This document shows, in pieces, positions 28,094-64,000 of a stretch of 64,000 bases of DNA. The stretch lies in assembly GCA_001786365.1 (NCBI GenBank), contig MFWK01000022.1, positions 15,087-79,086 on the forward strand, written 5' to 3'. The notes under the pieces are model-generated. The model was not told the DNA's origin, did no database searches, and saw nothing but the letters and a program-made list of their open reading frames with translations. The position numbers and the translations under genes were made by a program. Within the stretch, counting starts at the first letter, position 1. Each line of letters begins with the position of its first letter. Source of the DNA: Candidatus Nomurabacteria bacterium RIFOXYD2_FULL_35_12 (GTDB taxonomy: Bacteria; Patescibacteriota; Minisyncoccia; Phycocordibacterales; UBA9973).

Positions 28094-28795
28094 TTGAAAA
28101 TGGACACGTCCATCAATCATCAAGATAGTTGCAAAGAAGGATTGGGAGAACAACAACGAAACAAGAGAACCATCATAACGACTGTCCTTGTAGAGGACTT
28201 TCTTTTTGACGGAGGACAAGGAGTCGATGCGGATCGTCTGTCACCAGAAACGAAAATTAAGGTGATCAAACGTGTTCTCGCAGAATCGAAGCCTTATCTC
28301 AAATACATGTTCGCTCACACACTTCGTGACGACCCCACATTGCTCAAAGCAGTTGGCGGGGATTGGAACGAGAGAAGCATGTGTTCTAATGTGTGGAACT
28401 CAGGAGTAGACTTGTGCTGGGAGACGAGAATTGGCTATCTGTTTGGATCCAAACGACAATCCCTGTATTCACCGGAGATGGCTCAAAAGACACCAGATCG
28501 AGATGAGTGGGTTAAGTCGCTGTTCTTCATCTCAGACAAGGGCTGTCTCGTTGAGGTAAAGCTCGTGTCAAAGATATCAAAAGGATTCCTCATTGAATAT
28601 CCATGCTTGATGGAGGCTAAAATGCTCACTGATGAGAGGCTCACCGAGCTTTTTGTTAGTCACGAGTTCTTTTTCCAGGGTTTACTGGAATGCATCGAAG
28701 CCCACTACACCGCTCGTATAAGTGACCAGGAAGCTCGAGCGAATAACATGCGCCGAAACAGAACGAACATCAGGAGGATTCTTTCTCTGGTTTAA
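28094..28795 (+). CDS. Hypothetical protein encoded in a GC-rich island
   Basis: 233 aa ORF with a GGAG RBS 8 nt upstream and a rho-independent terminator downstream. Local GC is near 48% against a ~30% background. No recognisable domain. Confidence 0.4.
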   Translation: MKMDTSINHQDSCKEGLGEQQRNKRTIITTVLVEDFLFDGGQGVDADRLSPETKIKVIKRVLAESKPYLKYMFAHTLRDDPTLLKAVGGDWNERSMCSNVWNSGVDLCWETRIGYLFGSKRQSLYSPEMAQKTPDRDEWVKSLFFISDKGCLVEVKLVSKISKGFLIEYPCLMEAKMLTDERLTELFVSHEFFFQGLLECIEAHYTARISDQEARANNMRRNRTNIRRILSLV

Positions 28796-28819
28796 TCAGT
28801 AAAAAACCGCTCAACAACT

Positions 28820-28848
28820 TAGACCGTTGGAGGGCGGTCTTTGTTTTT
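28820..28848 (+). terminator. Rho-independent terminator (AGACCGTTGGAGGGCGGTCT + TTGTTTTTT)
   Basis: 6-bp GC stem, 8-nt loop, U-tract. Directly 3' of the 28094..28795 gene and next to the convergent aldehyde dehydrogenase stop. Confidence 0.6.
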
Positions 28849-30212
28849 TACCCAAAATAAACGTTTTTTATATTTACGAATTCCTTGATTCCATAAGTTC
28901 CGAGTTCACGGCCGTAGCCAGACTTTTTAATGCCTCCAAATGGCGCTCGCGGATCAGACTTAACCATATCATTCACACACACATTCCCCGCTTCAATTTG
29001 CGGAATAATTCGTTTTGCTTTTTTCATATCGGAAGTAAAAATAGACGCACCTAAGCCATATCTAGTGTCATTAGCTATTTGTATCGCCTCTTTTTCATTT
29101 TTAAAAGAAATAATCGGCATAACTGGACCAAAAACTTCCTCATCATAAACAGGCATACCCTTTTTCACATTCGTCATGACAACAGGCGAATAGAAATACC
29201 CTTTTTTATTTTTTTGAACGCCTTTATAAACAATTTTTGCTCCGAGGGATACTGATTTTTCTACTTGTTTTTCTACATCCAGTAAAATTTGTTCTGTTGC
29301 CAAAGGCCCTATGTCTATCTTTGAGTCACTAGGATCACCAATTGATAATTTTGAAAGTTCTTTTACTACATTTTTTATAAAAATATCTTTTATACTCTCC
29401 TCGACAATAAAACGTTTAGCAGAAATACAACTTTGCCCAACATTTCCTTGCAACCTTGCTGTGACAGCGATTTTCGCTGCTTCATCGATGTCCGCATCAG
29501 CAAAAACAATAAATGGATCACTACCACCGAGTTCAAGCACCACTTTTTTTATTTCCGCCCCAGCGACACTCGCAACCTCGCTTCCCGCTTTCTCACTGCC
29601 CGTCAAAGTAACTGCAGAAATTCTATTATCACGAATTAAATCAGCAACTCGAGACGACGAAAGAAATAAATTTTGGAATACGCCCTCGGGGAAACCACAA
29701 GCTCTAAATGATTCTTCTATTGCTTCCGCGCACTGTGGCACATTTGAAGCATGTTTAAGAAGCCCGACATTTCCTGCCATTAGTGCTGGTACAGCAAAAC
29801 GATAAACTTGCCAAAAAGGAAAATTCCAAGGCATTATTGCCAAAACTATTCCGAGCGGATCAAATTCCACATATTGTTCTTTCTTGCCCGTATCTAATTT
29901 TTCATTCTTTAAGATAATTTCCGCATTATCAGCATAATAATCACACAAAAGCCCGCATTTCTTTATGCCAAATGGACCAGACTTCATGGTCTTGCCCATT
30001 TCAAGCATTTGTAATTTTGAAAACTCTTCCGCATGGTTATTTAAATATTCTCCCAGCTTGTGCATTAAGGTAGCGCGCTCTTTAAAAGAAGTTCTCTTCC
30101 AAGACTCAAAAGCTTTCTTTGCTAGAGAAAGTTTCTTTTCTAATTCTTTTTCAGAAACTTCTTTAAAACTTTTTAAAACTTCTTCTGTTGCTGGATTTTT
30201 TGATTGAATCAT
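28848..30212 (-). CDS. NAD(P)-dependent aldehyde dehydrogenase (succinate-semialdehyde dehydrogenase-like)
   Basis: 454 aa. ELGGSDP, catalytic Cys context GQSCISAKRFIV, GxxxxG NAD site. Confidence 0.8.
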   Translation of the reverse strand: MIQSKNPATEEVLKSFKEVSEKELEKKLSLAKKAFESWKRTSFKERATLMHKLGEYLNNHAEEFSKLQMLEMGKTMKSGPFGIKKCGLLCDYYADNAEIILKNEKLDTGKKEQYVEFDPLGIVLAIMPWNFPFWQVYRFAVPALMAGNVGLLKHASNVPQCAEAIEESFRACGFPEGVFQNLFLSSSRVADLIRDNRISAVTLTGSEKAGSEVASVAGAEIKKVVLELGGSDPFIVFADADIDEAAKIAVTARLQGNVGQSCISAKRFIVEESIKDIFIKNVVKELSKLSIGDPSDSKIDIGPLATEQILLDVEKQVEKSVSLGAKIVYKGVQKNKKGYFYSPVVMTNVKKGMPVYDEEVFGPVMPIISFKNEKEAIQIANDTRYGLGASIFTSDMKKAKRIIPQIEAGNVCVNDMVKSDPRAPFGGIKKSGYGRELGTYGIKEFVNIKNVYFG

Positions 30213-40474: not shown

Positions 40475-40529
40475 AAAGTTATAAAGTTCTTAAGGTTGTA
40501 AAGTTTGAAAAATTAAATAGTTCTTAAGA

Positions 40530-40649
40530 AAAGCCTTGCGCAGGAGCTTAGAAAATAAATGAGGTAATCCGAATATTATTTTCTTGAGCGACGAGCAGTT
40601 CGCTGGCGAAGCTTCGCCAGATAGATTGCTTTTCGAGAGAAGCTATTTA
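40530..40649. repeat. Family F ~120-bp repeat, copy F1 (candidate structured RNA or MITE)
   Basis: AAAGCCTTGCGCAGGAGCTTAGAAAATAAA...TATTATTTTCTTGAGCGACGAGCAGTTCGCTGGCGAAGCTTCGCCAGATAGATTGCTTTT. About 90% identical to 48327..48445 and to the reverse complement of 61409..61511. Confidence 0.8.
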
Positions 40650-40662
40650 GTTTTTCAAAGAA

Positions 40663-48290: not shown

Positions 48291-48326
48291 TGTTTTTATT
48301 TAAAAAAATTAAAATAGTTCTTTTTA

Positions 48327-48445
48327 AAAGCCTTGCGCAGGAGCTTAGAAAATAAAAATGGTATTCCATTTATTATTTTCTTGAGCGACGAGCAGTTCGC
48401 TGGCAAAGCTTTGCCAGATAGATTGCTTTTTAAAAGAAGCTATTT
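48327..48445. repeat. Family F ~120-bp repeat, copy F2 (between atpE and atpF)
   Basis: Same sequence as F1. Its central palindrome reads CTGGCAAAGCTTTGCCAG here. Confidence 0.8.
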
Positions 48446-48457
48446 TAAATTTTCAAA

Positions 48458-56135: not shown

Positions 56136-57650
56136 TTATTTAAGTAAATCTATTAAGACCTGTTTTGTCACAGCCGGATTTGCAGAACCTTTTGTTTCTT
56201 TCATTATCTGACCGACGAGAGACATGAGTGCCTGTTCTTTACCACCCTTGTAGTCAGCAACAACTTTCGGACTAGCGTCAATAATCTTTTTTGCAATTTC
56301 TTTCAACGCTCCAGTATCGCTACTCTGAAGAAGGTTTTTCTCTGTCGCGATTTTCATCGGTGATTCATCTTTGCTATTAGTTTTTTTTGCAATCATCGCT
56401 AAAATATCTTTTGCCACGCGAGAAGAAATTTTATTTTCTGAAACAAGATTTATTAATTCTGCAAAATTTCCAACAGACGGCAGTTTTACCTCGCTTTTTG
56501 CTCTGAGTCCTATAAAATCTGTCGTAACATAATTAGACGCTATCTTTATTTGATCCTTATTTTTCAAAATTTTAGCCACTTCTTCAAACCAAGCTCCCAA
56601 ACTAGGCTCATTTATATAGCTTTCTATGTCTTCATCTTTTATTCCAAAATCTTTCTTGTATCTTGCACGTTTTGCCTGTGGAAGTTCTGGTAATTCTTTT
56701 TCAATTTTTTCTAAGTCAAATGCTTCGTGTAATTTCATCTTTGGCAAATCGGGTTCTGGAAAATATCTATAGTCTGCGCTTCCCTCTTTTTTTCTCTGAG
56801 AAAAAGTTTTTTGTTTACCATCATCCCAACCTCGAGTTTCCTGCACTATTTCTGAGCCTTTGCCTTCTTCTACTAATTTTATCATCCGATCGACTTCGTA
56901 TTTTATAGCTCGTTCAACGCTTCGGAAAGAATTTAAATTCTTTACTTCTACTTTTGTGCCTAATTTTTTTAGATCCGTAGAAACAGAAATGTTTGCTTCC
57001 ACGCGCATTTCACCTTTCTCCATATTCGCTTCGGAAACTCCAAGATACCAAAGTATAAGCTGGAGTTCTTTGGCAAATTTTGTCGAGCCTTTTGCCGCTT
57101 CTTCATCACTTTGAAAAGTTGTCGCTTCTGTCACAAGCTCCATCAAAGGTATACCTGCTCTGTTAAAGTCTACTAAACTATATCCGCCACGGTCACCTGC
57201 CCCGTACCGAGCTTGCTCTGGTTCGGGGTGCTTGTTGTTTGCTGTGTCTTCTTCCAAATGCACGCGAGTTATGTCAAAATCTGCCAAATGTCCACCAGAA
57301 ACTATTGGAAATTTATATTGAGAAATCTGATAACCTTTTGGAATATCCGGATAAAAATAATTCTTACGATCAAATTCCGTAAAGTCCGCAATTTTTCCAT
57401 CTACCGCCAAGCCGACTTTTATAACATTTTCTATCGCTTTTTTATTTATAACTGGCAAAGCTCCCGGATGCGCCATGCAAACTGGGCAGACATTTACGTT
57501 TGGCTTTTCTTCATCTGGGTCATTCTTGCAACCACAAAACATTTTTGTATTTGTCGAAAGTTCCGCATGTATTTCTAAACCAATTGTCGGGTAATACTTT
57601 TTTTCCATTATTAAAATAATAGCATATTTATAAAATATAATGAATTCCAC
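56136..57650 (-). CDS. gatB: Asp-tRNA(Asn)/Glu-tRNA(Gln) amidotransferase subunit B
   Basis: 504 aa. YYPTIGLEIHAELSTNTKMFCGC... C-terminal YqeY-like domain. Confidence 0.9.
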   Translation of the reverse strand: MEFIIFYKYAIILIMEKKYYPTIGLEIHAELSTNTKMFCGCKNDPDEEKPNVNVCPVCMAHPGALPVINKKAIENVIKVGLAVDGKIADFTEFDRKNYFYPDIPKGYQISQYKFPIVSGGHLADFDITRVHLEEDTANNKHPEPEQARYGAGDRGGYSLVDFNRAGIPLMELVTEATTFQSDEEAAKGSTKFAKELQLILWYLGVSEANMEKGEMRVEANISVSTDLKKLGTKVEVKNLNSFRSVERAIKYEVDRMIKLVEEGKGSEIVQETRGWDDGKQKTFSQRKKEGSADYRYFPEPDLPKMKLHEAFDLEKIEKELPELPQAKRARYKKDFGIKDEDIESYINEPSLGAWFEEVAKILKNKDQIKIASNYVTTDFIGLRAKSEVKLPSVGNFAELINLVSENKISSRVAKDILAMIAKKTNSKDESPMKIATEKNLLQSSDTGALKEIAKKIIDASPKVVADYKGGKEQALMSLVGQIMKETKGSANPAVTKQVLIDLLK

Positions 57651-57670
57651 AAATATAGATTGTTAATTTA

Positions 57671-57710
57671 TCTACCATCTAGAACATATGTAAAAGTTAG
57701 TAGAAATAAT
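57671..57710. promoter_or_regulatory. Promoter-like ~30-bp motif (TTTACA-N17-ATAAAT on minus strand), copy 1, upstream of gatB
   Basis: TAGAACATATGTAAAAGTTAGTAGAAATAAT is repeated directly (2 mismatches) at 58315..58353. On the minus strand it reads TTTCTACTAACTTTTACATATGTTCTA and lies ~35-60 nt 5' of the gatB ATG. Confidence 0.4.
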
Positions 57711-57715
57711 ATAAC

Positions 57716-58285
57716 TTAACTTTTTGATTTCAAAGTTCCATTTTTTGTAACTTCCAAGATTTCCACATAATCTAAAATGCCTAGCTTGCTTAAATCAGTA
57801 ATAAATCTTTCAGGTAGCTCTACCTTGCCCACCCAAACACTCTTGTGAACTAAATTAAAATCAAGCATTTGCAACATACCTCTTAAAATATTTCTCTCTC
57901 TATTGAAAGAAACTGGGATATCATAACTAATTACCACAACCTTATTTCCTAATTTTGATTTATATAAATCCTTATTTAAGGAAAAAGAATTTTGAAAATT
58001 ATTTAATTTATGTTTTCCTTTTTCGCTCAAATAAATTTGATTTAAGTCATTTTTAAAAATCAACCCTTCACTTTTTAATTTGGACAAATATTTTTTTAAC
58101 TTATCCATTTTCTGTTTGTCTAATTGTAAATTTATTCTTTTGTTTTGTATTTTTGAAAACTCGTATCTTATTTTATTACTCGTTGCGCCATATCCTGCTT
58201 GTAAAAAAGAATTTGCAAAATCAACATAATCAATCACTTCATCACCCAATAAATTAAAAATTTTATAAATAATTTCTCCTTTCAT
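57716..58285 (-). CDS. Hypothetical protein (flanked by the 30-bp direct repeats)
   Basis: 189 aa, no recognisable motif. Confidence 0.3.
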   Translation of the reverse strand: MKGEIIYKIFNLLGDEVIDYVDFANSFLQAGYGATSNKIRYEFSKIQNKRINLQLDKQKMDKLKKYLSKLKSEGLIFKNDLNQIYLSEKGKHKLNNFQNSFSLNKDLYKSKLGNKVVVISYDIPVSFNRERNILRGMLQMLDFNLVHKSVWVGKVELPERFITDLSKLGILDYVEILEVTKNGTLKSKS

Positions 58286-58314
58286 GCCATATATTATACA
58301 TCATAATTAATATT

Positions 58315-58353
58315 CTACTAATTTAGACATATGTAAAAGATAGTAGAAAATAT
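58315..58353. promoter_or_regulatory. Promoter-like ~30-bp motif, copy 2, upstream of the 57716..58285 gene
   Basis: TAGACATATGTAAAAGATAGTAGAAAATAT, a direct repeat of 57671..57710. Confidence 0.4.
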
Positions 58354-58394
58354 TTAATTTATTTTTTAAAAAATTTAATTACATAAAAAGAAAA

Positions 58395-58422
58395 TCGCCC
58401 CGGCTGGAGTGTCGGGGCGACA
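58395..58422 (-). terminator. Rho-independent terminator (TCGCCCCG-loop-CGGGGCGA + T-tract on minus strand), preceded by a second hairpin CTCGC-GCAGG-GCGAG
   Basis: Inverted repeat TCGCCCCGGCTGGAGTGTCGGGGCGA. The minus-strand reading is followed by TTTTCTTTTT. Lies 3' of the 58455..58802 gene. Confidence 0.6.
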
Positions 58423-58454
58423 ATCTCCTCGCGCAGGGCGAGATACAACATGAT

Positions 58455-58802
58455 TCATGACTGAACATACAGAGCTCCTTTCTCAAGGAGACCAGGAAGC
58501 TCTTTTTTACAGCAGTAGCATCTGAAAGATGAGCCAGCTCGAATAGTGTTGAGATTTCCACATTCCGAACAAGCTTCGCACTCCTCCAGGAAAAGGATTG
58601 GGTATGTTTGCCAAGCGTTCAAGAACACCCCAACAAGTGCACGGTCTATGATGAAATAAAGTGACGCTTCAGGTATGAAGCCTTCCCTGTCCACTTCCTT
58701 CATCATTCGATCCCAAGCTACCTTGATACTTTCCTGCGCTAATCCCCACTCTCGCAAAAAGTATAACAGACTCATTGCGTGATATGACATAGGATACGAC
58801 AT
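58455..58802 (-). CDS. Hypothetical protein with C-terminal CxxC...CxxC motif, encoded in a GC-rich island
   Basis: 115 aa. ...EECEACSECGNLNTIRAGSSFRCYCCKKE... Local GC ~45-50%, own terminator. ORF 58379..58561 overlaps and is probably spurious. Confidence 0.35.
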   Translation of the reverse strand: MSYPMSYHAMSLLYFLREWGLAQESIKVAWDRMMKEVDREGFIPEASLYFIIDRALVGVFLNAWQTYPILFLEECEACSECGNLNTIRAGSSFRCYCCKKELPGLLEKGALYVQS

Positions 58803-58904
58803 AAAGTTTGCTCCTTCCGTATTTTGATTTAACTTGTGAACACCTAAACTAAAAAAGATTATATCACAAATATAAGAGGTTGTCTATAAAAATATGGGGA
58901 AAAT

Positions 58905-59915
58905 TTACGCTTTCTTTAGAATCTTTACTAACGAGTCACTGAATTTTTTTACCATTTTGTCATCAAACAGAGAAAGAATAAAAACGTTCTTGCTGATTTT
59001 TTTGAAATCTGCTACTTTTTTAGCGATAATTTTAGCATCATTAACAAAATCAGATTTAGTTAAAATAATTATTTCTTCTTTTACAGACAAACCTTCATTA
59101 CCCAAGCCCAAAGTCTTGTCGTATTTTTCCAATTCTTTCCGTATTTCTTTATAACTTTTCATCATACCAGTAGAACCTTTAGAAAGATTTTCAAAAGAAA
59201 TGAGGTGCGCAATCATTTTCGTTCGTTTAATATGACGCAAGAATTTCACACCGAGGCCCTTGCCTTCTGAAGCCCCTTCAATGAGCCCAGGAATGTCCGC
59301 AATGATGTAACCATGAAAATCCCCCAAGTTTGGATCGAGCGTAGTAAAAGGATAATCTCCAACTTTTGCATCTGCATTTGTCAGTGCATTTAATAAAGAA
59401 GATTTACCCGCATTTGGAAGTCCAATAAAACCAATATCAGCAAAAAGCTCCAGCTCTATTTTAAAATCTCCTTTTTCACCAGGCCCACCGACATTTGATT
59501 CTTGTGGAGTCGTATTTACGGAACTTTTAAAATGTTCATTTCCAAAACCACCGAAACCACCCCTCAAGAGAAGAATCTTTTCTCCTTCTTTCATTAATTG
59601 CCATTTTTCATCAGTTGCAAGATTTGTAATAATAGAGCCAACAGGTAATTCTAAAATAAAATCTTGCCCATTTGCTCCATGCAAGCTCTTGCTTCCGCCG
59701 TCTTCCCCTCTGCCAGCAATAAAACTTTTCTTGGCTTTATATTTTAAAAGTATGTGCACGTCGCGGACAGCTTGCACATAAAAATTCCCGCCTCGTCCGG
59801 CATCTCCTCCGGCCGGGCCACCTTTTGGCTCAAATTTCTGCCTGTGCCACCTGACAACACCGTTTCCACCGGCTCCAGCTTCTGCATATATTTTAATTTC
59901 ATCAATGAATGCCAT
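58905..59915 (-). CDS. obg: GTPase Obg/CgtA
   Basis: 336 aa. Obg fold MAFIDEIKIYAEAGAGGNGVVRWHRQKF...; G1 GLPNAGKSS; G3 DIPG. Confidence 0.9.
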   Translation of the reverse strand: MAFIDEIKIYAEAGAGGNGVVRWHRQKFEPKGGPAGGDAGRGGNFYVQAVRDVHILLKYKAKKSFIAGRGEDGGSKSLHGANGQDFILELPVGSIITNLATDEKWQLMKEGEKILLLRGGFGGFGNEHFKSSVNTTPQESNVGGPGEKGDFKIELELFADIGFIGLPNAGKSSLLNALTNADAKVGDYPFTTLDPNLGDFHGYIIADIPGLIEGASEGKGLGVKFLRHIKRTKMIAHLISFENLSKGSTGMMKSYKEIRKELEKYDKTLGLGNEGLSVKEEIIILTKSDFVNDAKIIAKKVADFKKISKNVFILSLFDDKMVKKFSDSLVKILKKA

Positions 59916-59948
59916 ATGAAAAGTATAAAAATGAAAAATTAAGGAGCC

Positions 59949-59980
59949 GTGGGTTCCCTGTCCTTATGACCTCGAGGGCG
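59949..59980. repeat. Family D 32-nt repeat, copy D2 (reverse orientation)
   Basis: GTGGGTTCCCTGTCCTTATGACCTCGAGGGCG is the exact reverse complement of 17281..17312. Confidence 0.7.
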
Positions 59981-60016
59981 AAGGTGGGAGAATTTTTTAT
60001 TTTTACATTTTTCATA

Positions 60017-60916
60017 TTAACCTAATAATGCCAATTCTGCTAATTTAATTGCCCCTTCTTTTGATTTTGCGACTGCAAGAAAAAGCGCCCGATGACAGAA
60101 TACCGCATCCTTTACTCCTGTTATTTTTTGCAAATCTTCATATGAATATCCACCCCAAGAAACAGGAAAGTCCTTCCTATTTCCAAAACTACTTTTGCTT
60201 TTCCTCATAGATACAACAGACCAATCATCTTTATCACCATAAACTACAAAAAGGGGTTCTTCAAAGTCTTGCAACGCATCCCAAATCTCAAATCTAGAAA
60301 CCTTTGGCTTGTCTATAACGATAAGCCTCTTGTCTTCCGACTTTTTATAATAACCTTTAATAATTTTTGTGATTTCTATTTGATCACTTGCTCTTTTAAT
60401 TTCTCTCTTTAAAATTTCTTTCGCCCACACCAACACTTTCAAAAACTGCTTGTCTTTCTCTACATCCTCTAATGCAGTCGGAGAAAAAATAGAAAAAACA
60501 TCCTGTAAAGTATATGGGAAAATATTCGAAAAATTACTCTTATACAAATCGATTCCGTTATCATTTGCATCCACCGGCATCACTAGTTTACGTTCAATCA
60601 CATCTGCGACTTCTTTACTACCGGAGATTTCTTTGCCAAATTTTTTCCAAATAAGACCAAAAGACGAATAAGGTATACCCTCCCTTTCACCTGCTCCGCC
60701 CTTCTGATGATGATCAAATCTATTTAGATCTTCACTATATATTCTTCCCACATCAAAGACATAATCTCCACTTTTTTTAATCTCAATATCTCTCGTGCGA
60801 ATTATTTTAAAATTCTCACCTCGATTCTCAAGCATGATTAAAAGCGTCGCAGCCGCAAAAATATCATCGGGGTGAAACGAACCATCATGTGTTACTAATT
60901 TTGTCAGTTTTTTCAT
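60017..60916 (-). CDS. MYG1/UPF0160-family metal-dependent hydrolase
   Basis: 299 aa. THDGSFHPDDIFAAATL N-terminal motif typical of MYG1. Confidence 0.65.
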   Translation of the reverse strand: MKKLTKLVTHDGSFHPDDIFAAATLLIMLENRGENFKIIRTRDIEIKKSGDYVFDVGRIYSEDLNRFDHHQKGGAGEREGIPYSSFGLIWKKFGKEISGSKEVADVIERKLVMPVDANDNGIDLYKSNFSNIFPYTLQDVFSIFSPTALEDVEKDKQFLKVLVWAKEILKREIKRASDQIEITKIIKGYYKKSEDKRLIVIDKPKVSRFEIWDALQDFEEPLFVVYGDKDDWSVVSMRKSKSSFGNRKDFPVSWGGYSYEDLQKITGVKDAVFCHRALFLAVAKSKEGAIKLAELALLG

Positions 60917-60930
60917 CCAAGTGCAAAAAT

Positions 60931-61380
60931 TTAAAATAATGAATCTACGACTTCTTTGACCAAAGTGCCATCCGCTTTACCTTTTAATTCTTTCATAACA
61001 GCAGACATCAACATACCCTTTTTTGTGGCATCAGTAATTGCAAGCTCGGCCTTTTTTGCTTTGGCGACCTTTTCAATATCTCCTTTGCTCATCATTTTCG
61101 GAAGATAAGTTTCTAGAATGGAAAGTTCTGCTTGTTCTTCTTTTACCAAGTCTTCTCTATTTCCTTTTTTGAACTGTTCAATAGAATCCTTGCGTTGCTT
61201 GGCGAGCCTATTTATCACAGCTAAAGCTTCTTCATCTTTGAGCATTTCTTGAGGCTTTTTATTTTTTGCTACAAGCTCATTTGTAAAAGCTGCAGACATA
61301 GCCCGAAATGCTTTCAGCTTTAATGCATCGTGTGCCATCATCGCTTCTTTTATTCCATTTTTTATTTGTTCGTGTAACAT
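60931..61380 (-). CDS. GatB/YqeY-domain protein
   Basis: 149 aa. MLHEQIKNGIKEAMMAHDALKLKAFRAMSAAFTNELV... is YqeY-like. Confidence 0.7.
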   Translation of the reverse strand: MLHEQIKNGIKEAMMAHDALKLKAFRAMSAAFTNELVAKNKKPQEMLKDEEALAVINRLAKQRKDSIEQFKKGNREDLVKEEQAELSILETYLPKMMSKGDIEKVAKAKKAELAITDATKKGMLMSAVMKELKGKADGTLVKEVVDSLF

Positions 61381-61408
61381 AAATTTATATAGGAATATCT
61401 ATTTTTAT

Positions 61409-61511
61409 AAAGCAATCTATCTGGGCAAGCTTGCCCAGCGAACTGCTCGTCGCTCAAGAAAATAATAAATAGAATACTATTTTTATTTTCTAAGCTCCTG
61501 CGCAAGGCTTT
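61409..61511. repeat. Family F ~120-bp repeat, copy F3 (reverse orientation, between divergent genes)
   Basis: Reverse complement matches F1/F2. The central palindrome here is CTGGGCAAGCTTGCCCAG. Confidence 0.8.
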
Positions 61512-61564
61512 CTAAAAACAATATTCCTATATAAATTATAACAGAATTGTGTTAAAATAGCACT

Positions 61565-62302
61565 ATGTCTAAATTAATATTTTTTGATACAGAAACCACC
61601 GGTAATACAGACAAAGATTTTCTTTGTCAGATTGCTTACAAAACAGATAAAGAAACTTTTACAGGCTTATATAAACCAGAAATCAAAATCCCTCCGGAAG
61701 CTTCTGCTGTGCATCACCTAACGAATAAAATGCTTACTGATAAACCCTCTTTTAAAGATTCCGGTGATCAGCAAAAAATCAAAAAACTTTTTGAAGATAA
61801 AGATTCAGTAGTTGTAGCTCACAACGCACCTTTTGACTTGATAATGATAAAAAAAGAAGGCATTGAGCCTAAAAAATTCATCTGCACCCTACGAGTCGCC
61901 AGACATTTAGATAAAGAAGAAAAAATAGAAAGATATAATTTACAATATTTGCGTTACTTGCTCGAAATAGAAGTAGATGCCACAGCTCACGACGCACTCG
62001 GTGACGTGCTCGTATTGGAACAACTTTTTGAAAGGCTATATAAAAAAGTGAAAGAAGAAATAGCCCCGACGTCTAAAGGAGTCGGGGTCACGACCGAAAA
62101 CGTCGTGAATAAAATGATAGAAATTTCCTCGCACCCCTCCCTTTTGCGTTCTTTTGGTTTTGGTAAACATAACGGTAAAAGAATAGAAGAAGTGGCAAAA
62201 ATGGATAGAGGTTATCTGGAGTGGCTCCTAGCCCAAAAACTCGCGGGAGACCAAATGGACGAGGATTGGATTTATACCTTGAAGCATTACTTAGATAAAT
62301 AA
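61565..62302 (+). CDS. DnaQ-like 3'-5' exonuclease (DEDDh) with C-terminal extension
   Basis: 245 aa. Exo I FFDTETTG, Exo II VAHNAPFD, Exo III HDALGD. The extension includes in-frame family B element B4 (APTSKGVGVTTENVV). Confidence 0.75.
   Translation: MSKLIFFDTETTGNTDKDFLCQIAYKTDKETFTGLYKPEIKIPPEASAVHHLTNKMLTDKPSFKDSGDQQKIKKLFEDKDSVVVAHNAPFDLIMIKKEGIEPKKFICTLRVARHLDKEEKIERYNLQYLRYLLEIEVDATAHDALGDVLVLEQLFERLYKKVKEEIAPTSKGVGVTTENVVNKMIEISSHPSLLRSFGFGKHNGKRIEEVAKMDRGYLEWLLAQKLAGDQMDEDWIYTLKHYLDK
62065..62107. repeat. Family B element, copy B4 (in-frame inside the dnaQ-like gene)
   Basis: CCCCGACGTCTAAAGGAGTCGGGGTCACGACCGAAAACGTCGTG. Confidence 0.7.
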
Positions 62303-62379
62303 ACCTACTTGGATAATTATAAAACGTGTGTTAGCATCTTAGGAGAAATGTTAGCGCGTTAGCGAAAAAAAAAGGAACA

Positions 62380-62544
62380 ATGCAAAGCAAATGCAAAAAA
62401 CACCCTAATTACACGCCGGTTCCCAGGTTTCATCCACAACGGACAGAACCTCGAAACAAATGCCCTACTTGTTGGGACATATGGGAACATCGGTTTGATT
62501 TTCTAATCAAACGAAGGAGGAATCATATTGACGTTCCCAGATAG
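62380..62544 (+). CDS. Candidate small zinc-ribbon ORF inside a GC-rich intergenic island
   Basis: 54 aa. MQSKCKKHPNYTPVPRFHPQRTEPRNKCPTCWDIWEHRFDFLIKRRRNHIDVPR, preceded by AAAGGA. The region 62330..62620 is ~45% GC. Coding status is unproven. Confidence 0.2.
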   Translation: MQSKCKKHPNYTPVPRFHPQRTEPRNKCPTCWDIWEHRFDFLIKRRRNHIDVPR

Positions 62545-62640
62545 ACAAATTATGCGCATCGCCGCCGTGAGAGCCGAGCTTTCACAGGCGGCTTCTCATT
62601 TCTACTCGATTATTTGGGGAAATAATATATAATATAAGTT

Positions 62641-63387
62641 ATGAAGGAAAGTCCAAACCATTTTAATCCTATTAAAAAACTCGGTAATGTGAACCAAATA
62701 AGTCTTGGAGCTGATTCAAGAGTTTTTCGTGTTGTAAATCCTAAAGAAGATGTTGATATCGTCGCAAAAGAATATAGTGAGATAAAAATTAAACCAGAGG
62801 TTGTAAAAGAAATTATAGAACAATACTATGCCGACACAGAAAGAGCTAAAAAAATAACTAATGAACAACCAAACCCCCTAAATCAAAGGGTTAAGATAGA
62901 AGATAAAATATACTCTTTGGAATATAGGATAACTTCTCAGGGTACAATTATTTTAAACATTCCAATGGTATCTAATCAATCAACTAGAATGTGGGAAATA
63001 ATGCATGGAATTCCTAAAAAGAAAAAACACCAAGAAAAAATAGAAAATAAAACATCTTTAGGACAAGAATTTATTGATGGATATGACCTTAATCTCTTAA
63101 TGAACTATGAAGGAGAATTTCAATCATTACCTAAAGGAATTACTGATGCACAAGAACCTTTTCTAGAACGTAAAGAACTTGGAAAAGTGTTATGTAGTAT
63201 GATTGAAGAATTTTTTAGTTATTTATCAAAAATACTCAACATAAATCTTTCTTTTGATTCTATTAATATAAAACCTTTCTTAGATAAAAGAAATGGAAAA
63301 ATAACCTTAATTATAACAGACTTAGCTTCTAGTTTAGAGGATTATTATAAAAATAGTCCAAAATTTAAAAAACCTAAAGAAAAATAA
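62641..63387 (+). CDS. Hypothetical protein
   Basis: 248 aa ORF, no confident motif. Confidence 0.3.
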   Translation: MKESPNHFNPIKKLGNVNQISLGADSRVFRVVNPKEDVDIVAKEYSEIKIKPEVVKEIIEQYYADTERAKKITNEQPNPLNQRVKIEDKIYSLEYRITSQGTIILNIPMVSNQSTRMWEIMHGIPKKKKHQEKIENKTSLGQEFIDGYDLNLLMNYEGEFQSLPKGITDAQEPFLERKELGKVLCSMIEEFFSYLSKILNINLSFDSINIKPFLDKRNGKITLIITDLASSLEDYYKNSPKFKKPKEK

Positions 63388-63403
63388 TGTTAATATAAAT
63401 ATA

Positions 63404-64000
63404 TGGAAAATGTAATTTGGATAATATTAGGAATAGTCGTAGGAGGCGCAGTAGCCTACTCTATTTTAAATAAAAAAAAGGAAGAGAAAAAAGACGACAT
63501 TGGGCTCAACCTTATTCTCACGCAAATAAACGAACTCTCACGAACAGTAGACAGCAAAATCGGCGAAAGTCATAAACAAGTAAACGAAAGCTTGAAATTT
63601 CATTCAAGTGAATCAAACAAAATTATTCGAGACGTGACGGAGCGACTGACTAGACTGGATGAGACGAATAAACAAGTCATTTCTTTTGCCGACCAATTGC
63701 AAAGCTTGGAAAATATCTTAAAAAATCCAAAACAACGTGGAATCTTGGGTGAATATTATCTGGAAACAGTTTTAAAAAACGTCCTTCCACCCGGCAGTTA
63801 CCAAATGCAATATGAATTCCCTGATAAAACTATCGTGGACGCCGTCGTCTTTGTGAAAGATAAAATTATTCCTATTGACTCAAAATTCTCGCTGGAGAAT
63901 TACAACAAGATGGTGGAAGAGCGTGATGGAGCAGAAAAGAAAAAATTAGAAACTATTTTCATAAACGATTTAAAAAATAGAATTACCGAAACTGCAAAAT
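63404..64000 (+). CDS. rmuC: DNA recombination protein RmuC (partial, runs off window end)
   Basis: ATG at 63404. N-terminal TM MENVIWIILGIVVGGAVAYSIL, coiled coil, then the RmuC motif NPKQRGILGEYYLETVLKNVLP. Confidence 0.75.

What the first reader, a model, noticed from the sequence alone, without database searches (positions are those of the whole stretch)
58380..58860. GC-rich island 2: orphan 115-aa CxxC-protein gene with tandem terminators, next to a direct-repeat-flanked hypothetical gene
About 480 bp at ~45-50% GC. It encodes a 115-aa protein with a C-terminal CEACSECG...CYCCKKE ribbon, followed by two GC-rich hairpin terminators. Directly adjacent is the 57716..58285 hypothetical gene, bracketed by 30-bp direct repeats. 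Together they form a ~1.2-kb patch of non-housekeeping content between gatB and obg.
Basis: seen in the sequence. Interest (0 to 1): 0.5.

Follow-up and report, generated by a model that had tools for sequence, protein, structure and literature searches.

The report
Imported orphan zinc-ribbon gene cassette
A small, GC-rich, self-contained gene for a nearly unique zinc-ribbon protein was recently dropped into a spot between two housekeeping genes that often receives insertions in these tiny groundwater bacteria, next to an older inserted regulator gene flanked by its own likely binding sites; it is real, but it is an ordinary kind of event and its function is unknown.

Summary
Window 58380-58860 has 44.5% GC against 35% for the window. 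It carries a minus-strand 115-aa ORF (58455-58802). The ORF has a near-consensus extended -10 promoter, a GGAAGGAG ribosome-binding site and a hairpin plus U-run terminator.

It codes for protein and is not an RNA. Its only relative among about 15 billion proteins is a 110-aa protein (32% identity) in a sister species. The two match in one reading frame only and share the four zinc-ribbon cysteines.

GC3 is 0.46 against 0.27 +/- 0.05 for host genes. The gene is absent from the 80 related obg loci. In 43 of the 73 loci that hold both genes, obg and gatB lie within 100 bp of each other. The sister-species copy is also GC-rich, and it sits in a different variable slot, 3' of tRNA-Glu.

The best reading is a species-specific, imported, moron-like single-gene cassette in an insertion hot spot. 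No fold or family match gives a function.

The neighbouring 189-aa gene is a PaaX-like regulator (winged helix plus Cas2-like domain) found at the same site in at least 10 other species. Its "direct repeats" are two copies of a conserved 34-bp dyad-symmetric site placed at promoters. They are probably operators, not insertion scars.

The parts
58858..58886 (-). Sigma-70-type promoter of the 115-aa gene: TAGACA, 17-nt spacer, TATAAT, with a TG extended -10.
   Evidence: It matches 11 of 12 consensus positions with the TG motif, the best site in the scan of 57400-59200. It starts 19 bp after the obg stop codon. This is a prediction; no transcript data exist.
58811..58818 (-). Shine-Dalgarno sequence GGAAGGAG, 8 nt upstream of the ATG at 58802.
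   Evidence: Read directly from the sequence.
58455..58802 (-). CDS of the 115-aa acidic protein (pI 5.1). It has an N-terminal four-helix domain and a C-terminal C4 zinc ribbon.
   Evidence: - ORF listed.
- The identical protein is called on 19 contigs from JGI, ENA and Logan assemblies.
- One homologue, P0008, found by exhaustive phmmer at E = 1e-4; pairwise 32% identity, E = 4e-15.
- Similarity appears only in frame pair +1/+1 and there is no DNA-level similarity.
- AF2 model has pLDDT 73.
- pI.
58509..58580 (-). Zinc-ribbon segment, residues 75-98. C78, C81, C95 and C98 are the four cysteines conserved in the homologue (CxxC-x13-CxxC).
   Evidence: Alignment A2 gives the invariant Cys columns. 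The PDB sequence profile hits only generic zinc ribbons such as L40e, eS27 and Rpb12, at E >= 0.0014.
58383..58442 (-). 3' end of the unit: a weak hairpin (58428-58442), then a GC-rich hairpin (58394-58421) followed by a U-run (58383-58393). Together they form an intrinsic terminator.
   Evidence: The 82-nt fold has -29 kcal/mol and z = -3.7; 0 of 200 shuffles fold as well.
58314..58347 (-). Upstream copy of the 34-bp dyad-symmetric site (TCTACTATCT-N14-AGATAGTAGA type). Its right arm overlaps the -35 position of the paaX-like promoter. It is the core of direct repeat D1, 58314-58367.
   Evidence: The site ends 26-29 nt before the paaX ATG in 9 of 9 species. Arm covariation: 13 doubly changed cells against 3.2 +/- 1.5 in shuffles, reached by 0 of 500 shuffles.
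58293..58298 (-). TATAAT -10 box, 7 nt before the paaX-like ATG with no Shine-Dalgarno sequence. This implies a leaderless mRNA.
   Evidence: Read from the sequence. The same arrangement is conserved in 9 species. Leaderless translation is inferred, not shown.
57716..58285 (-). 189-aa basic protein (pI 9.6), PaaX-like, with a winged-helix domain and a Cas2-like domain.
   Evidence: - Pfam PaaX_M scores 31.5 bits against a cut-off of 24; HTH_45 scores 20.2 bits, below its cut-off.
- PADLOC Cas2 E = 7e-4.
- AF2 model has pLDDT 82.
- Foldseek hits Cas2 structures and E. coli PaaX 8a39.
- 173 homologue clusters, those named being Nomurabacteria/Parcubacteria/Paceibacterota/Patescibacteria 'hypothetical proteins'.
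- Present at the same site in 10 other species.
57671..57704 (-). Downstream copy of the 34-bp dyad-symmetric site. It lies 11 nt after the paaX-like stop and 62 nt before the gatB ATG. It is the core of direct repeat D1, 57671-57724.
57616..57624 (-). Extended -10 box (TGcTATTAT), 7 nt before the gatB ATG at 57608. This is the promoter that would drive gatB once the insertions separated it from obg.
   Evidence: Read from the sequence. The motif TGnTAWTAT recurs 7-10 nt before the next gene's ATG in paaX-bearing relatives. In most paaX-less relatives obg and gatB are only 5-30 nt apart, leaving no room for a promoter.

Best explanation
Window 58383-58886 (-) is an autonomous, single-gene transcription unit. 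It consists of a strong promoter, a ribosome-binding site, a 115-aa CDS and a terminator.

**What the gene is.** It encodes a real, cytoplasmic, acidic protein with a four-helix N-terminal domain and a C4 zinc ribbon. The protein belongs to a family with only two known members.

**How it got there.** It is a recent, species-specific import from a GC-richer gene pool. It landed in the obg-gatB junction, which is ancestrally a tight operon junction and is an insertion hot spot in Nomurabacteria. Its anatomy is that of a phage 'moron', but it sits in a bacterial chromosome.

**How it probably works (inferred).** The gene is probably transcribed from its own promoter, and also by read-through from obg. 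Its terminator would insulate the genes downstream. Because the protein is acidic and zinc-stabilised, it more likely binds another protein than DNA. This functional step is a guess, at about 0.2 confidence.

**The neighbour.** The adjacent 189-aa gene is an older, separate insertion: a PaaX-like winged-helix/Cas2-like DNA-binding protein. The 'direct repeats' are its two 34-bp dyad-symmetric operator-like sites. One overlaps its own leaderless promoter, which suggests autoregulation. The other lies upstream of the promoter that restores gatB expression.

The stated confidence of 0.65 applies to the identity of the unit as a real, imported, autonomous gene cassette in a hot spot, not to the guessed function.
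For: **Shown: it codes for protein.**
- Frame-specific protein similarity to P0008, with the four Cys conserved.
- No RNA family match and no excess RNA folding (z = -1.56).

**Shown: composition is foreign.**
- GC3 is 0.46 against 0.267 +/- 0.054 for host genes.
- Codon log-likelihood z is about -4.6.

**Shown: the insertion is species-specific.**
- Absent from 80 related loci by tblastn, blastn and nhmmer.
- obg and gatB are within 100 bp in 43 of 73 relatives. The spacer is 0.5-4 kb in 26 relatives, with differing cargo.
- The sister species L090 has Obg at 94% identity. It carries a different AT-rich gene at this site.

**Shown: the only homologue is also a GC-rich cassette elsewhere.**
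- It has GC3 0.63 against 0.18-0.37 for its neighbours, with its own promoter and a double hairpin.
- It sits 3' of tRNA-Glu. In the window species the orthologous promoter there drives an unrelated GC-rich 77-aa gene.

**Shown: it is not an assembly artefact.**
- The DNA is identical on 8 contigs fetched from independent JGI, ENA and Logan assemblies, and the protein is called on 19 contigs.

**Shown: unit boundaries.**
- Promoter and terminator.

**Shown: the neighbour.**
- Domain and fold evidence.
- Palindrome conservation, placement and covariation.

**Background.** The moron definition is taken from PMC4378225. HGT is reported to be common in Patescibacteria (PMC12455944).
Against: - No donor lineage is identified. 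The only homologue lies in the same genus-level lineage, which also fits a native, fast-evolving gene.
- There are no target-site duplications, recombinase genes or att-like sites around the cassette, so the insertion mechanism is unknown.
- Population contigs show no polymorphism (100% identity). Recency therefore rests on composition and on absence from relatives.
- The AF2 model rests on a two-sequence alignment, and the zinc ribbon has pLDDT of only 58-70.
- Promoter, leaderless starts and operator role are sequence predictions only.
Confidence: 0.65

Rival explanations
1. The gene is a native, lineage-specific gene that evolves very fast and has moved between nearby intergenic slots. It was not imported. 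The two family members would then descend from one ancestral Nomurabacteria gene.
For: The only homologue among about 15 billion proteins is in a sister species (Obg 94% identical), only about 6 kb from the equivalent position. No outside donor is known.
Against: Identity is 32%, against 94% for the flanking Obg. Both copies keep GC3 far above host values (0.46 and 0.63, against about 0.27). A resident gene under AT-biased mutation should have lost this. The flanks, promoters and terminators of the two copies are unrelated.
Confidence: 0.15
2. The GC-rich segment is a structured non-coding RNA gene, and the ORF is incidental.
For: GC-rich islands in AT-rich genomes are often RNA genes. The segment has its own promoter and terminator.
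Against: There is no Rfam hit at gathering score or at E <= 0.1. ARAGORN finds nothing there. The fold z-score is -1.56, with 6 of 100 shuffles folding as well. The homologue shares no DNA similarity but does share protein similarity in exactly one frame pair, with conserved Cys. A strong Shine-Dalgarno sequence sits 8 nt from the ATG.
Confidence: 0.03
3. The 115-aa gene and the PaaX-like gene form one functional two-gene module that arrived together. Examples would be a regulator with its target, or a toxin-antitoxin or defence pair.
For: The two genes are adjacent, on the same strand, and both lie inside the obg-gatB patch.
Against: The PaaX-like gene occurs at this site in 10 other species without the 115-aa gene. 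The homologue P0008 sits in a genome region without a PaaX-like gene nearby. Their compositions are opposite (GC3 0.46 and 0.23). Terminators separate them. There is no palindrome at the 115-aa gene's promoter. PADLOC finds no defence family for the 115-aa protein.
Confidence: 0.05
4. The palindromic direct repeats flanking the PaaX-like gene are the ends of a mobile cassette. They would be hairpin sites used for excision or integration, perhaps by the Cas2-like domain, and not transcriptional operators.
For: - Exactly two copies bracket the gene in every species that has it.
- The arms co-vary, as they would for a hairpin.
- The orientation of the upstream copy is flipped in L017 and L062.
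- Solitary copies occur in other variable spacers (L045:3705, L062:1238).
- The gene's distribution among relatives is patchy.
- S120-Y121-D122 is invariant in the Cas2-like domain.
Against: - In all 10 other species the gene sits at the same locus, so no mobility is observed.
- Spacing to the -10 box and the ATG is fixed within 3 nt, as expected for a promoter-operator.
- The protein is basic and has a winged-helix domain, like the repressor PaaX.
- As RNA, the hairpins are weak (-8 to -10 kcal/mol, z about -2.1).
Confidence: 0.15

Closest known systems
Phage 'morons' (single accessory genes in lambdoid and Mu-like phages)
   Same: A single coding region flanked by its own promoter and terminator. 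It is inserted between two genes that are adjacent in related genomes. Its nucleotide composition differs from that of its neighbours, and the insertion mechanism is unknown. The definition is from PMC4378225; the matching features are shown.
   Different: This gene sits in a housekeeping stretch of a bacterial (CPR) chromosome (myg1-obg-gatB-fba), not in a phage or prophage. No phage genes are nearby, and there are no PHROG or BFVD matches.
Horizontally acquired ORFan genes and genomic islets in bacteria, including the HGT reported in Patescibacteria (PMC12455944)
   Same: Short, lineage-restricted, compositionally atypical, with no annotated function. HGT has been documented in aquifer Patescibacteria.
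   Different: Bacterial ORFans are usually AT-richer than their host (abstract of PMC3514957, seen). Here the islet is GC-richer. At about 0.5 kb it is far below the size that island-prediction tools detect.
Integron gene cassettes
   Same: Single-ORF units with variable cargo at a fixed chromosomal position. Sister species carry different cargo between homologous flanks in two other slots.
   Different: This unit carries its own promoter and terminator. No attC-like site, integrase or Pc promoter was seen, and the flanks of the 115-aa unit are unique.
PaaX, the GntR-type repressor of phenylacetate catabolism in E. coli (for the neighbouring gene)
   Same: A Cas2-like central domain (Pfam PaaX_M above its cut-off) preceded by a winged-helix region. 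Foldseek aligns 124 columns to PaaX 8a39. The gene is associated with palindromic DNA sites at promoters. From my own knowledge, PaaX binds palindromic operators.
   Different: At 189 aa it lacks the PaaX C-terminal domain. There are no paa genes nearby. The lineage is restricted to Nomurabacteria and related Patescibacteria groups, as far as the sources name the hits. Ligand and targets are unknown, and the downstream gene is gatB or whatever happens to be inserted there.
Generic C4 zinc-ribbon modules (L40e, eS27, Rpb12, RanBP2/Mdm2-type)
   Same: A CxxC-x13-CxxC motif with short beta hairpins.

Membership tests
Moron (phage accessory transcription unit) | A single gene with its own promoter and terminator. 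| tested here: met
   The promoter matches 11 of 12 positions with TG. The terminator fold has z = -3.7. These are predictions only.
Moron (phage accessory transcription unit) | Inserted between genes that are adjacent in related genomes. | tested here: met
   obg and gatB are within 100 bp in 43 of 73 relatives, and the gene is absent from all of them.
Moron (phage accessory transcription unit) | Nucleotide composition differs from that of the neighbours. | tested here: met
   GC3 is 0.46, against 0.30 for obg and 0.23 for the paaX-like gene. The host mean is 0.267, sd 0.054.
Moron (phage accessory transcription unit) | Resides in a phage or prophage genome. | tested here: not met
   The flanking genes are housekeeping genes conserved in order across 80 species. 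There is no PHROG hit.
Integron gene cassette | A promoterless ORF followed by an attC recombination site, next to intI and attI. | tested here: not met
   The unit has its own promoter. The 3' hairpins are followed by a U-run, typical of a terminator. No repeats are shared with other cassettes. The window was not scanned specifically for intI.
Zinc ribbon (C4) | Two CxxC knuckles conserved among homologues. | tested here: met
   C78, C81, C95 and C98 are invariant between P0001 and P0008. Metal binding itself cannot be tested here.
Known Rfam RNA family | Covariance-model score at or above the gathering threshold. | tested here: not met
   The best sub-threshold match scores 19.8 bits against a cut-off of 74.
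PaaX family (neighbouring 189-aa gene) | Central Cas2-like domain (PF20803). | tested here: met
   31.5 bits against a cut-off of 24. Foldseek probabilities to Cas2 structures are 0.9-1.0.
PaaX family (neighbouring 189-aa gene) | N-terminal winged helix-turn-helix domain. | tested here: inconclusive
   HTH_45 scores 20.2 bits, below its cut-off of 25.5. AbiEi-like HTH gives E = 0.0045. The AF2 model shows helices plus a beta hairpin at residues 76-86.
PaaX family (neighbouring 189-aa gene) | C-terminal PaaX_C domain, and association with paa genes or phenylacetyl-CoA. | tested here: not met
   The protein ends at residue 189 with no PaaX_C hit. Its neighbours are obg and gatB.
CRISPR-Cas adaptation module (Cas2) | Cas2 encoded next to cas1 and a CRISPR array. 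| tested here: not met
   The neighbours are obg, the 115-aa gene and gatB. The only CRISPR-DR match is sub-threshold, at 21 bits against 45. There are two repeats spaced 643 bp apart, not an array.

The most novel reading that the evidence does not exclude
Nomurabacteria chromosomes may contain fixed 'expression slots' at former operon junctions and next to tRNA-Glu. Each slot would keep its promoter and terminator, while a GC-rich single-ORF cargo is exchanged among a lineage-specific, still unsampled gene pool, without any recognisable recombinase. This would be a chromosomal, moron-like cassette-exchange system. The 115-aa zinc-ribbon family would be one of its cargoes.

Three observations support this:
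- Sister species share the promoter and terminator but carry unrelated GC-rich ORFs in the exo-RmuC slot, with two tandem cassettes in L090.
- The same pattern holds in the tRNA-Glu slot.
- In many relatives the inserted exo-RmuC spacers are GC-richer than their genome.
Probability: 0.2. Interest if true: 0.65.

Novelty: new member of a known kind. Interest (0 to 1): 0.35.

Why it matters
On its own this is a routine result: a real, imported orphan gene of unknown function. Three points give it modest value.

1. It defines a new two-member protein family (four-helix domain plus C4 zinc ribbon) with no fold match.
2. It shows that tight operon junctions (obg-gatB, exo-RmuC) and the tRNA-Glu 3' flank in streamlined CPR genomes act as recurrent landing sites for tiny cargo that is often GC-rich. 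Such islets are too small for island-prediction tools, so they would be missed in estimates of HGT in Patescibacteria.
3. It uncovers a conserved regulator-operator module: a PaaX-like protein with two 34-bp palindromes and leaderless promoters. This gives a directly testable handle on transcription control in an uncultivated lineage.

Tried and rejected
**RNA-gene reading: rejected.**
- Rfam gathering and E-value scans, ARAGORN and a whole-unit RNA fold were all negative.

**Function for the 115-aa protein: none found.**
- Pfam, PHROGs, PADLOC and NCBIfam gave no credible hit.
- The PDB sequence profile gave only generic zinc ribbons.
- Foldseek against BFVD gave nothing at E <= 0.001.
- The AFDB library was unavailable.

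**Further homologues: almost none.**
- Three of the five exhaustive phmmer hits (P0006, P0007, P0009) are long repeat proteins and were discarded as spurious.
- A profile search with the two-member alignment found no further members.
- The viral contig scan found none.

**Common origin with island 1 or the 62330-62620 patch: rejected at sequence level.**
- There is no DNA or protein similarity. Only codon usage is similar.

**Other checks.**
- No target-site duplication around the 115-aa cassette.
- No population polymorphism: 100% identical DNA in 8 contigs, so no dN/dS test was possible.
- No literature on PaaX-like proteins in CPR.
Full report
**Source and setting.** The exact 115-aa protein is on record as a hypothetical protein of Candidatus Nomurabacteria bacterium RIFOXYD2_FULL_35_12 and its sibling bins. 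It is called on 19 contigs from JGI, ENA and Logan assemblies. The window has 35% GC. The local gene order on the minus strand is fba, gatB, a 189-aa gene, the 115-aa gene, obg, myg1 and yqeY.

**Checking the observation.** Region 58380-58860 has GC 0.445 (z = 2.2; top 1.6% of 481-bp windows), with a peak of 0.49. Bulk GC is matched by a few conserved genes such as atpD, so it is not decisive. Third-position GC is decisive. The ORF has GC3 0.46, against 0.267 +/- 0.054 for the 50-odd genes of at least 150 aa. Only two other plausible ORFs in the window are comparable: 28094-28795 at 0.50 and 62380-62544 at 0.40. Synonymous codon choice fits host usage poorly, at -1.29 against -0.99 +/- 0.065.

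Upstream lies the best promoter match of the region: TAGACA, a 17-nt spacer, then TG-a-TATAAT, matching 11 of 12 positions, at 58886-58858. GGAAGGAG sits 8 nt before the ATG. Downstream are a weak hairpin and a strong GC hairpin with a U-run (-29 kcal/mol, z = -3.7). So "tandem terminators" is roughly right, but only the second is canonical. The flanking repeats of the neighbouring gene are real and longer than reported: 54 nt at 76% identity.

**Coding or RNA?** A GC-rich island in an AT-rich genome could be an RNA gene, so this was tested first. Rfam finds nothing at gathering score or at a relaxed E-value, ARAGORN finds nothing, and the whole unit folds no better than shuffles (z = -1.56).

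A word-seeded search of 5.8 billion protein clusters found only the protein itself. An exhaustive phmmer search of 1.84 billion representatives found one credible relative, P0008 (110 aa, E = 1e-4). The other three hits are long repeat proteins and are spurious. Pairwise, P0001 and P0008 share 32% identity over 102 residues (E = 4e-15). The shared features are the N-terminal M-x-Y-H...FLR motif, an (F/L)IPE motif, and four cysteines in CxxC-x13-CxxC. The two DNA segments have no nucleotide similarity. They match by tblastx in exactly one frame pair. The ORF is therefore a real protein-coding gene.

**Is it an insertion?** I used Obg to fetch 80 loci from other Nomurabacteria/Paceibacterota species.
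- None contains the 115-aa gene by tblastn, blastn (word size 7) or nhmmer.
- Of the 73 loci holding both obg and gatB, 43 have the two genes within 100 bp. Often they are only 5-30 nt apart, which leaves no room for a promoter, so the ancestral state is a tight operon junction.
- Twenty-six loci have 0.5-4 kb of varied cargo at this junction. The junction is an insertion hot spot.

The 189-aa neighbour is present at the same site in 10 other species, at 47-74% identity. It is an older event, and the 115-aa unit is a later, species-specific addition between obg and that gene. In relatives, the obg-to-paaX gap holds other small genes or nothing. No target-site duplication or recombinase is visible. 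Population contigs are 100% identical, so no polymorphism test was possible.

**The homologue's context.** A metagenome scan recovered P0008 on a 24-kb contig, L090. L090 is a sister species. It shares 80-86% DNA identity with the window across RmuC, exo, yqeY, myg1, obg and gatB, and its Obg is 94% identical.

At the obg-gatB junction L090 carries a different, AT-rich gene of about 215 aa, with no paaX-like gene and no 115-aa homologue. P0008 instead lies about 6 kb away, immediately 3' of tRNA-Glu(CTC). It sits behind a TTGACA promoter and ahead of two hairpins and a U-run. Its GC is 0.53 and its GC3 0.63, in a neighbourhood with GC3 of 0.18-0.37.

In the window species the orthologous tRNA-Glu and promoter are present beyond the window's end. 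There they drive an unrelated GC-rich 77-aa gene (GC3 0.51).

The two family members are thus both compositionally foreign, both self-contained, highly diverged (32% against 94% for Obg), and located in different variable slots. This fits independent draws from a shared, unsampled, GC-richer pool better than vertical descent. The native-fast-evolving alternative cannot be excluded, because no outside donor is known.

**A wider pattern (partly followed).** The exo-RmuC spacer is a third slot. The window's 62306-62615 cassette (54-aa ORF) shares its promoter/5'UTR and its terminator with two tandem cassettes in L090, yet the three ORFs are unrelated. Across the roughly 55 other species whose loci include both exo and RmuC, this spacer is either under 100 bp or holds 0.17-1.6 kb. 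In many of the species with an insertion, it is GC-richer than the genome. None of these GC-rich ORFs has a homologue in the other relatives' loci. This is the basis for the cassette-exchange reading. I rate that at about 0.2, because it rests on two or three slots in two sister species.

Both family members are acidic (pI 5.1 and 4.7) and lack hydrophobic leader or membrane segments. My best guess is a cytoplasmic, zinc-stabilised protein-binding factor and not a DNA binder. This is inference only, at about 0.2.

**The neighbouring gene and its repeats.** The 189-aa protein hits Pfam PaaX_M, the Cas2-like domain (31.5 bits; cut-off 24). It also hits winged-helix models weakly and PADLOC Cas2. 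An AF2 model from 29 homologues has pLDDT 82. Its C-terminal half matches Cas2 structures (Foldseek probability up to 1.0), and the whole model aligns to E. coli PaaX 8a39. The protein is basic, with pI 9.6. It has 173 homologue clusters, and every hit that a source names is a 'hypothetical protein' from Nomurabacteria, Parcubacteria, Paceibacterota, Patescibacteria or an unclassified bacterium.

The "direct repeats" have a 34-bp dyad-symmetric core. The consensus is TCTACTATCT-TTT-ACATATGT-TCG-AGATAGTAGA.
- Exactly two copies flank the gene in each of the 9 species where the scan detected the site. Solitary copies occur in other variable spacers of two species.
- Dyad symmetry is maintained by compensatory changes in the outer arms: TCT/AGA, CTT/AAG, ATG/CAT and TCC/GGA. 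There are 13 doubly changed cells against 3.2 +/- 1.5 in shuffles, reached by 0 of 500 shuffles, and 92% of cells are paired against 23-47% when the partner is slid.
- The upstream copy ends 26-29 nt before the ATG. A conserved TATAAT lies 7-9 nt before the ATG and there is no Shine-Dalgarno sequence. The right arm therefore occupies the -35 position of a leaderless promoter.
- The downstream copy lies 11-26 nt after the stop. Where gatB or another gene follows directly (5 of the 9 species), it lies 51-62 nt before that gene's ATG. A TGnTAWTAT extended -10 follows the downstream copy in all nine, and where the start could be read it lies 7-10 nt before the ATG.

I read these as operators of the PaaX-like protein: autoregulation, plus control of the promoter that keeps gatB expressed after the operon junction was split. 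The rival reading is hairpin ends of a mobile unit. It is kept at 0.15 because of the covariation, the flipped copies and the invariant S-Y-D motif in the Cas2-like domain. Against it, the unit is never seen at a different locus.

**Comparison with known systems.** The 115-aa unit meets three of the four defining features of a phage moron: its own promoter and terminator, insertion between otherwise adjacent genes, and deviant composition (definition from PMC4378225). It fails the fourth, because it is in a bacterial chromosome. It is not an integron cassette, since it has its own promoter and no attC. It is an instance of small-scale HGT and ORFan acquisition, which is documented for Patescibacteria at the level of larger islands (PMC12455944). 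It is unusual in being GC-richer than its host.

**Verdict.** It is a new member of a known kind: an imported orphan gene islet encoding an uncharacterised two-member protein family. Interest is about 0.35. The added value lies mostly in the hot-spot and slot pattern and in the PaaX-like operator module.

Noticed in passing
window 61385-61540 (-), 48300-48455 (+), 40505-40660 (+); also L090 11375-11530: An intergenic repeat of about 120 nt occurs three times in the window, with 86% mean column identity. An internal hairpin, CTGG[GC/CA/CG]AAGCTT[GC/TG/CG]CCAG, shows compensatory changes between copies. There is no Rfam family. It could be an unannotated small RNA or a regulatory repeat.
   Followed up: partly
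window 62306-62615 (54-aa ORF at 62380-62544); L090 9667-10630: The cassette in the exo-RmuC spacer shares its promoter/5'UTR (62306-62347) and terminator (62557-62615) with two tandem cassettes in the sister species. The three GC-rich ORFs (54, 142 and 82 aa) are unrelated to each other. The flanks are conserved while the cargo is swapped.
   Followed up: partly
L092 12065-12640 (just beyond the window's right end); L090 7840-8400: tRNA-Glu(CTC) and an orthologous TTGACA promoter are followed by different GC-rich genes in two sister species. One is a 77-aa acidic protein (GC3 0.51). The other is the 115-aa gene's homologue, P0008. The tRNA-plus-cargo segment is inverted between the two genomes.
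   Followed up: partly
exo-RmuC spacers of L009-L088: Among the roughly 55 other species whose loci hold both genes, the spacer is under 100 bp in about 33. About 24 have insertions of 0.17-1.6 kb, and many of these are GC-richer than their genome: for example L020 0.50 against 0.42, L033 0.49 against 0.39, and L087 0.53 against 0.45.
   Followed up: partly
window 28094-28795 (+): This is 'island 1': a 233-aa ORF with GC3 0.50, the strongest compositional outlier in the window. It has no Pfam, PHROG, PADLOC or NCBIfam hit, and a terminator-like hairpin follows at about 28810-28850. It shows no sequence similarity to the 115-aa unit.
   Followed up: partly
L091 (ENA ERZ4902888 NODE_167), compared with window 59931-64000: This contig is 99.95% identical to the window from 59931 rightwards. 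It diverges completely in the myg1-obg spacer, carrying PolyA polymerase and other genes in place of obg, the 115-aa gene, the paaX-like gene and gatB. It is either a strain-level rearrangement at another junction or a chimeric assembly.
   Followed up: no
window 58286-58298 and 57609-57624; equivalent positions in L011-L062: The paaX-like gene and gatB both have a -10 box 7 nt from the ATG and no Shine-Dalgarno sequence, which suggests leaderless mRNAs. The imported 115-aa gene, by contrast, has a strong Shine-Dalgarno sequence. L018 lacks the paaX-like gene but keeps a near-identical gatB-proximal ATGCTATTATTTTA motif (the last three bases before the ATG differ), possibly a remnant of loss.
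   Followed up: partly
L045:3705 and L062:1238: Solitary copies of the 34-bp PaaX-type palindrome lie in other variable spacers (exo-RmuC, and after the Mur ligase gene), with no PaaX-like gene adjacent.
   Followed up: partly
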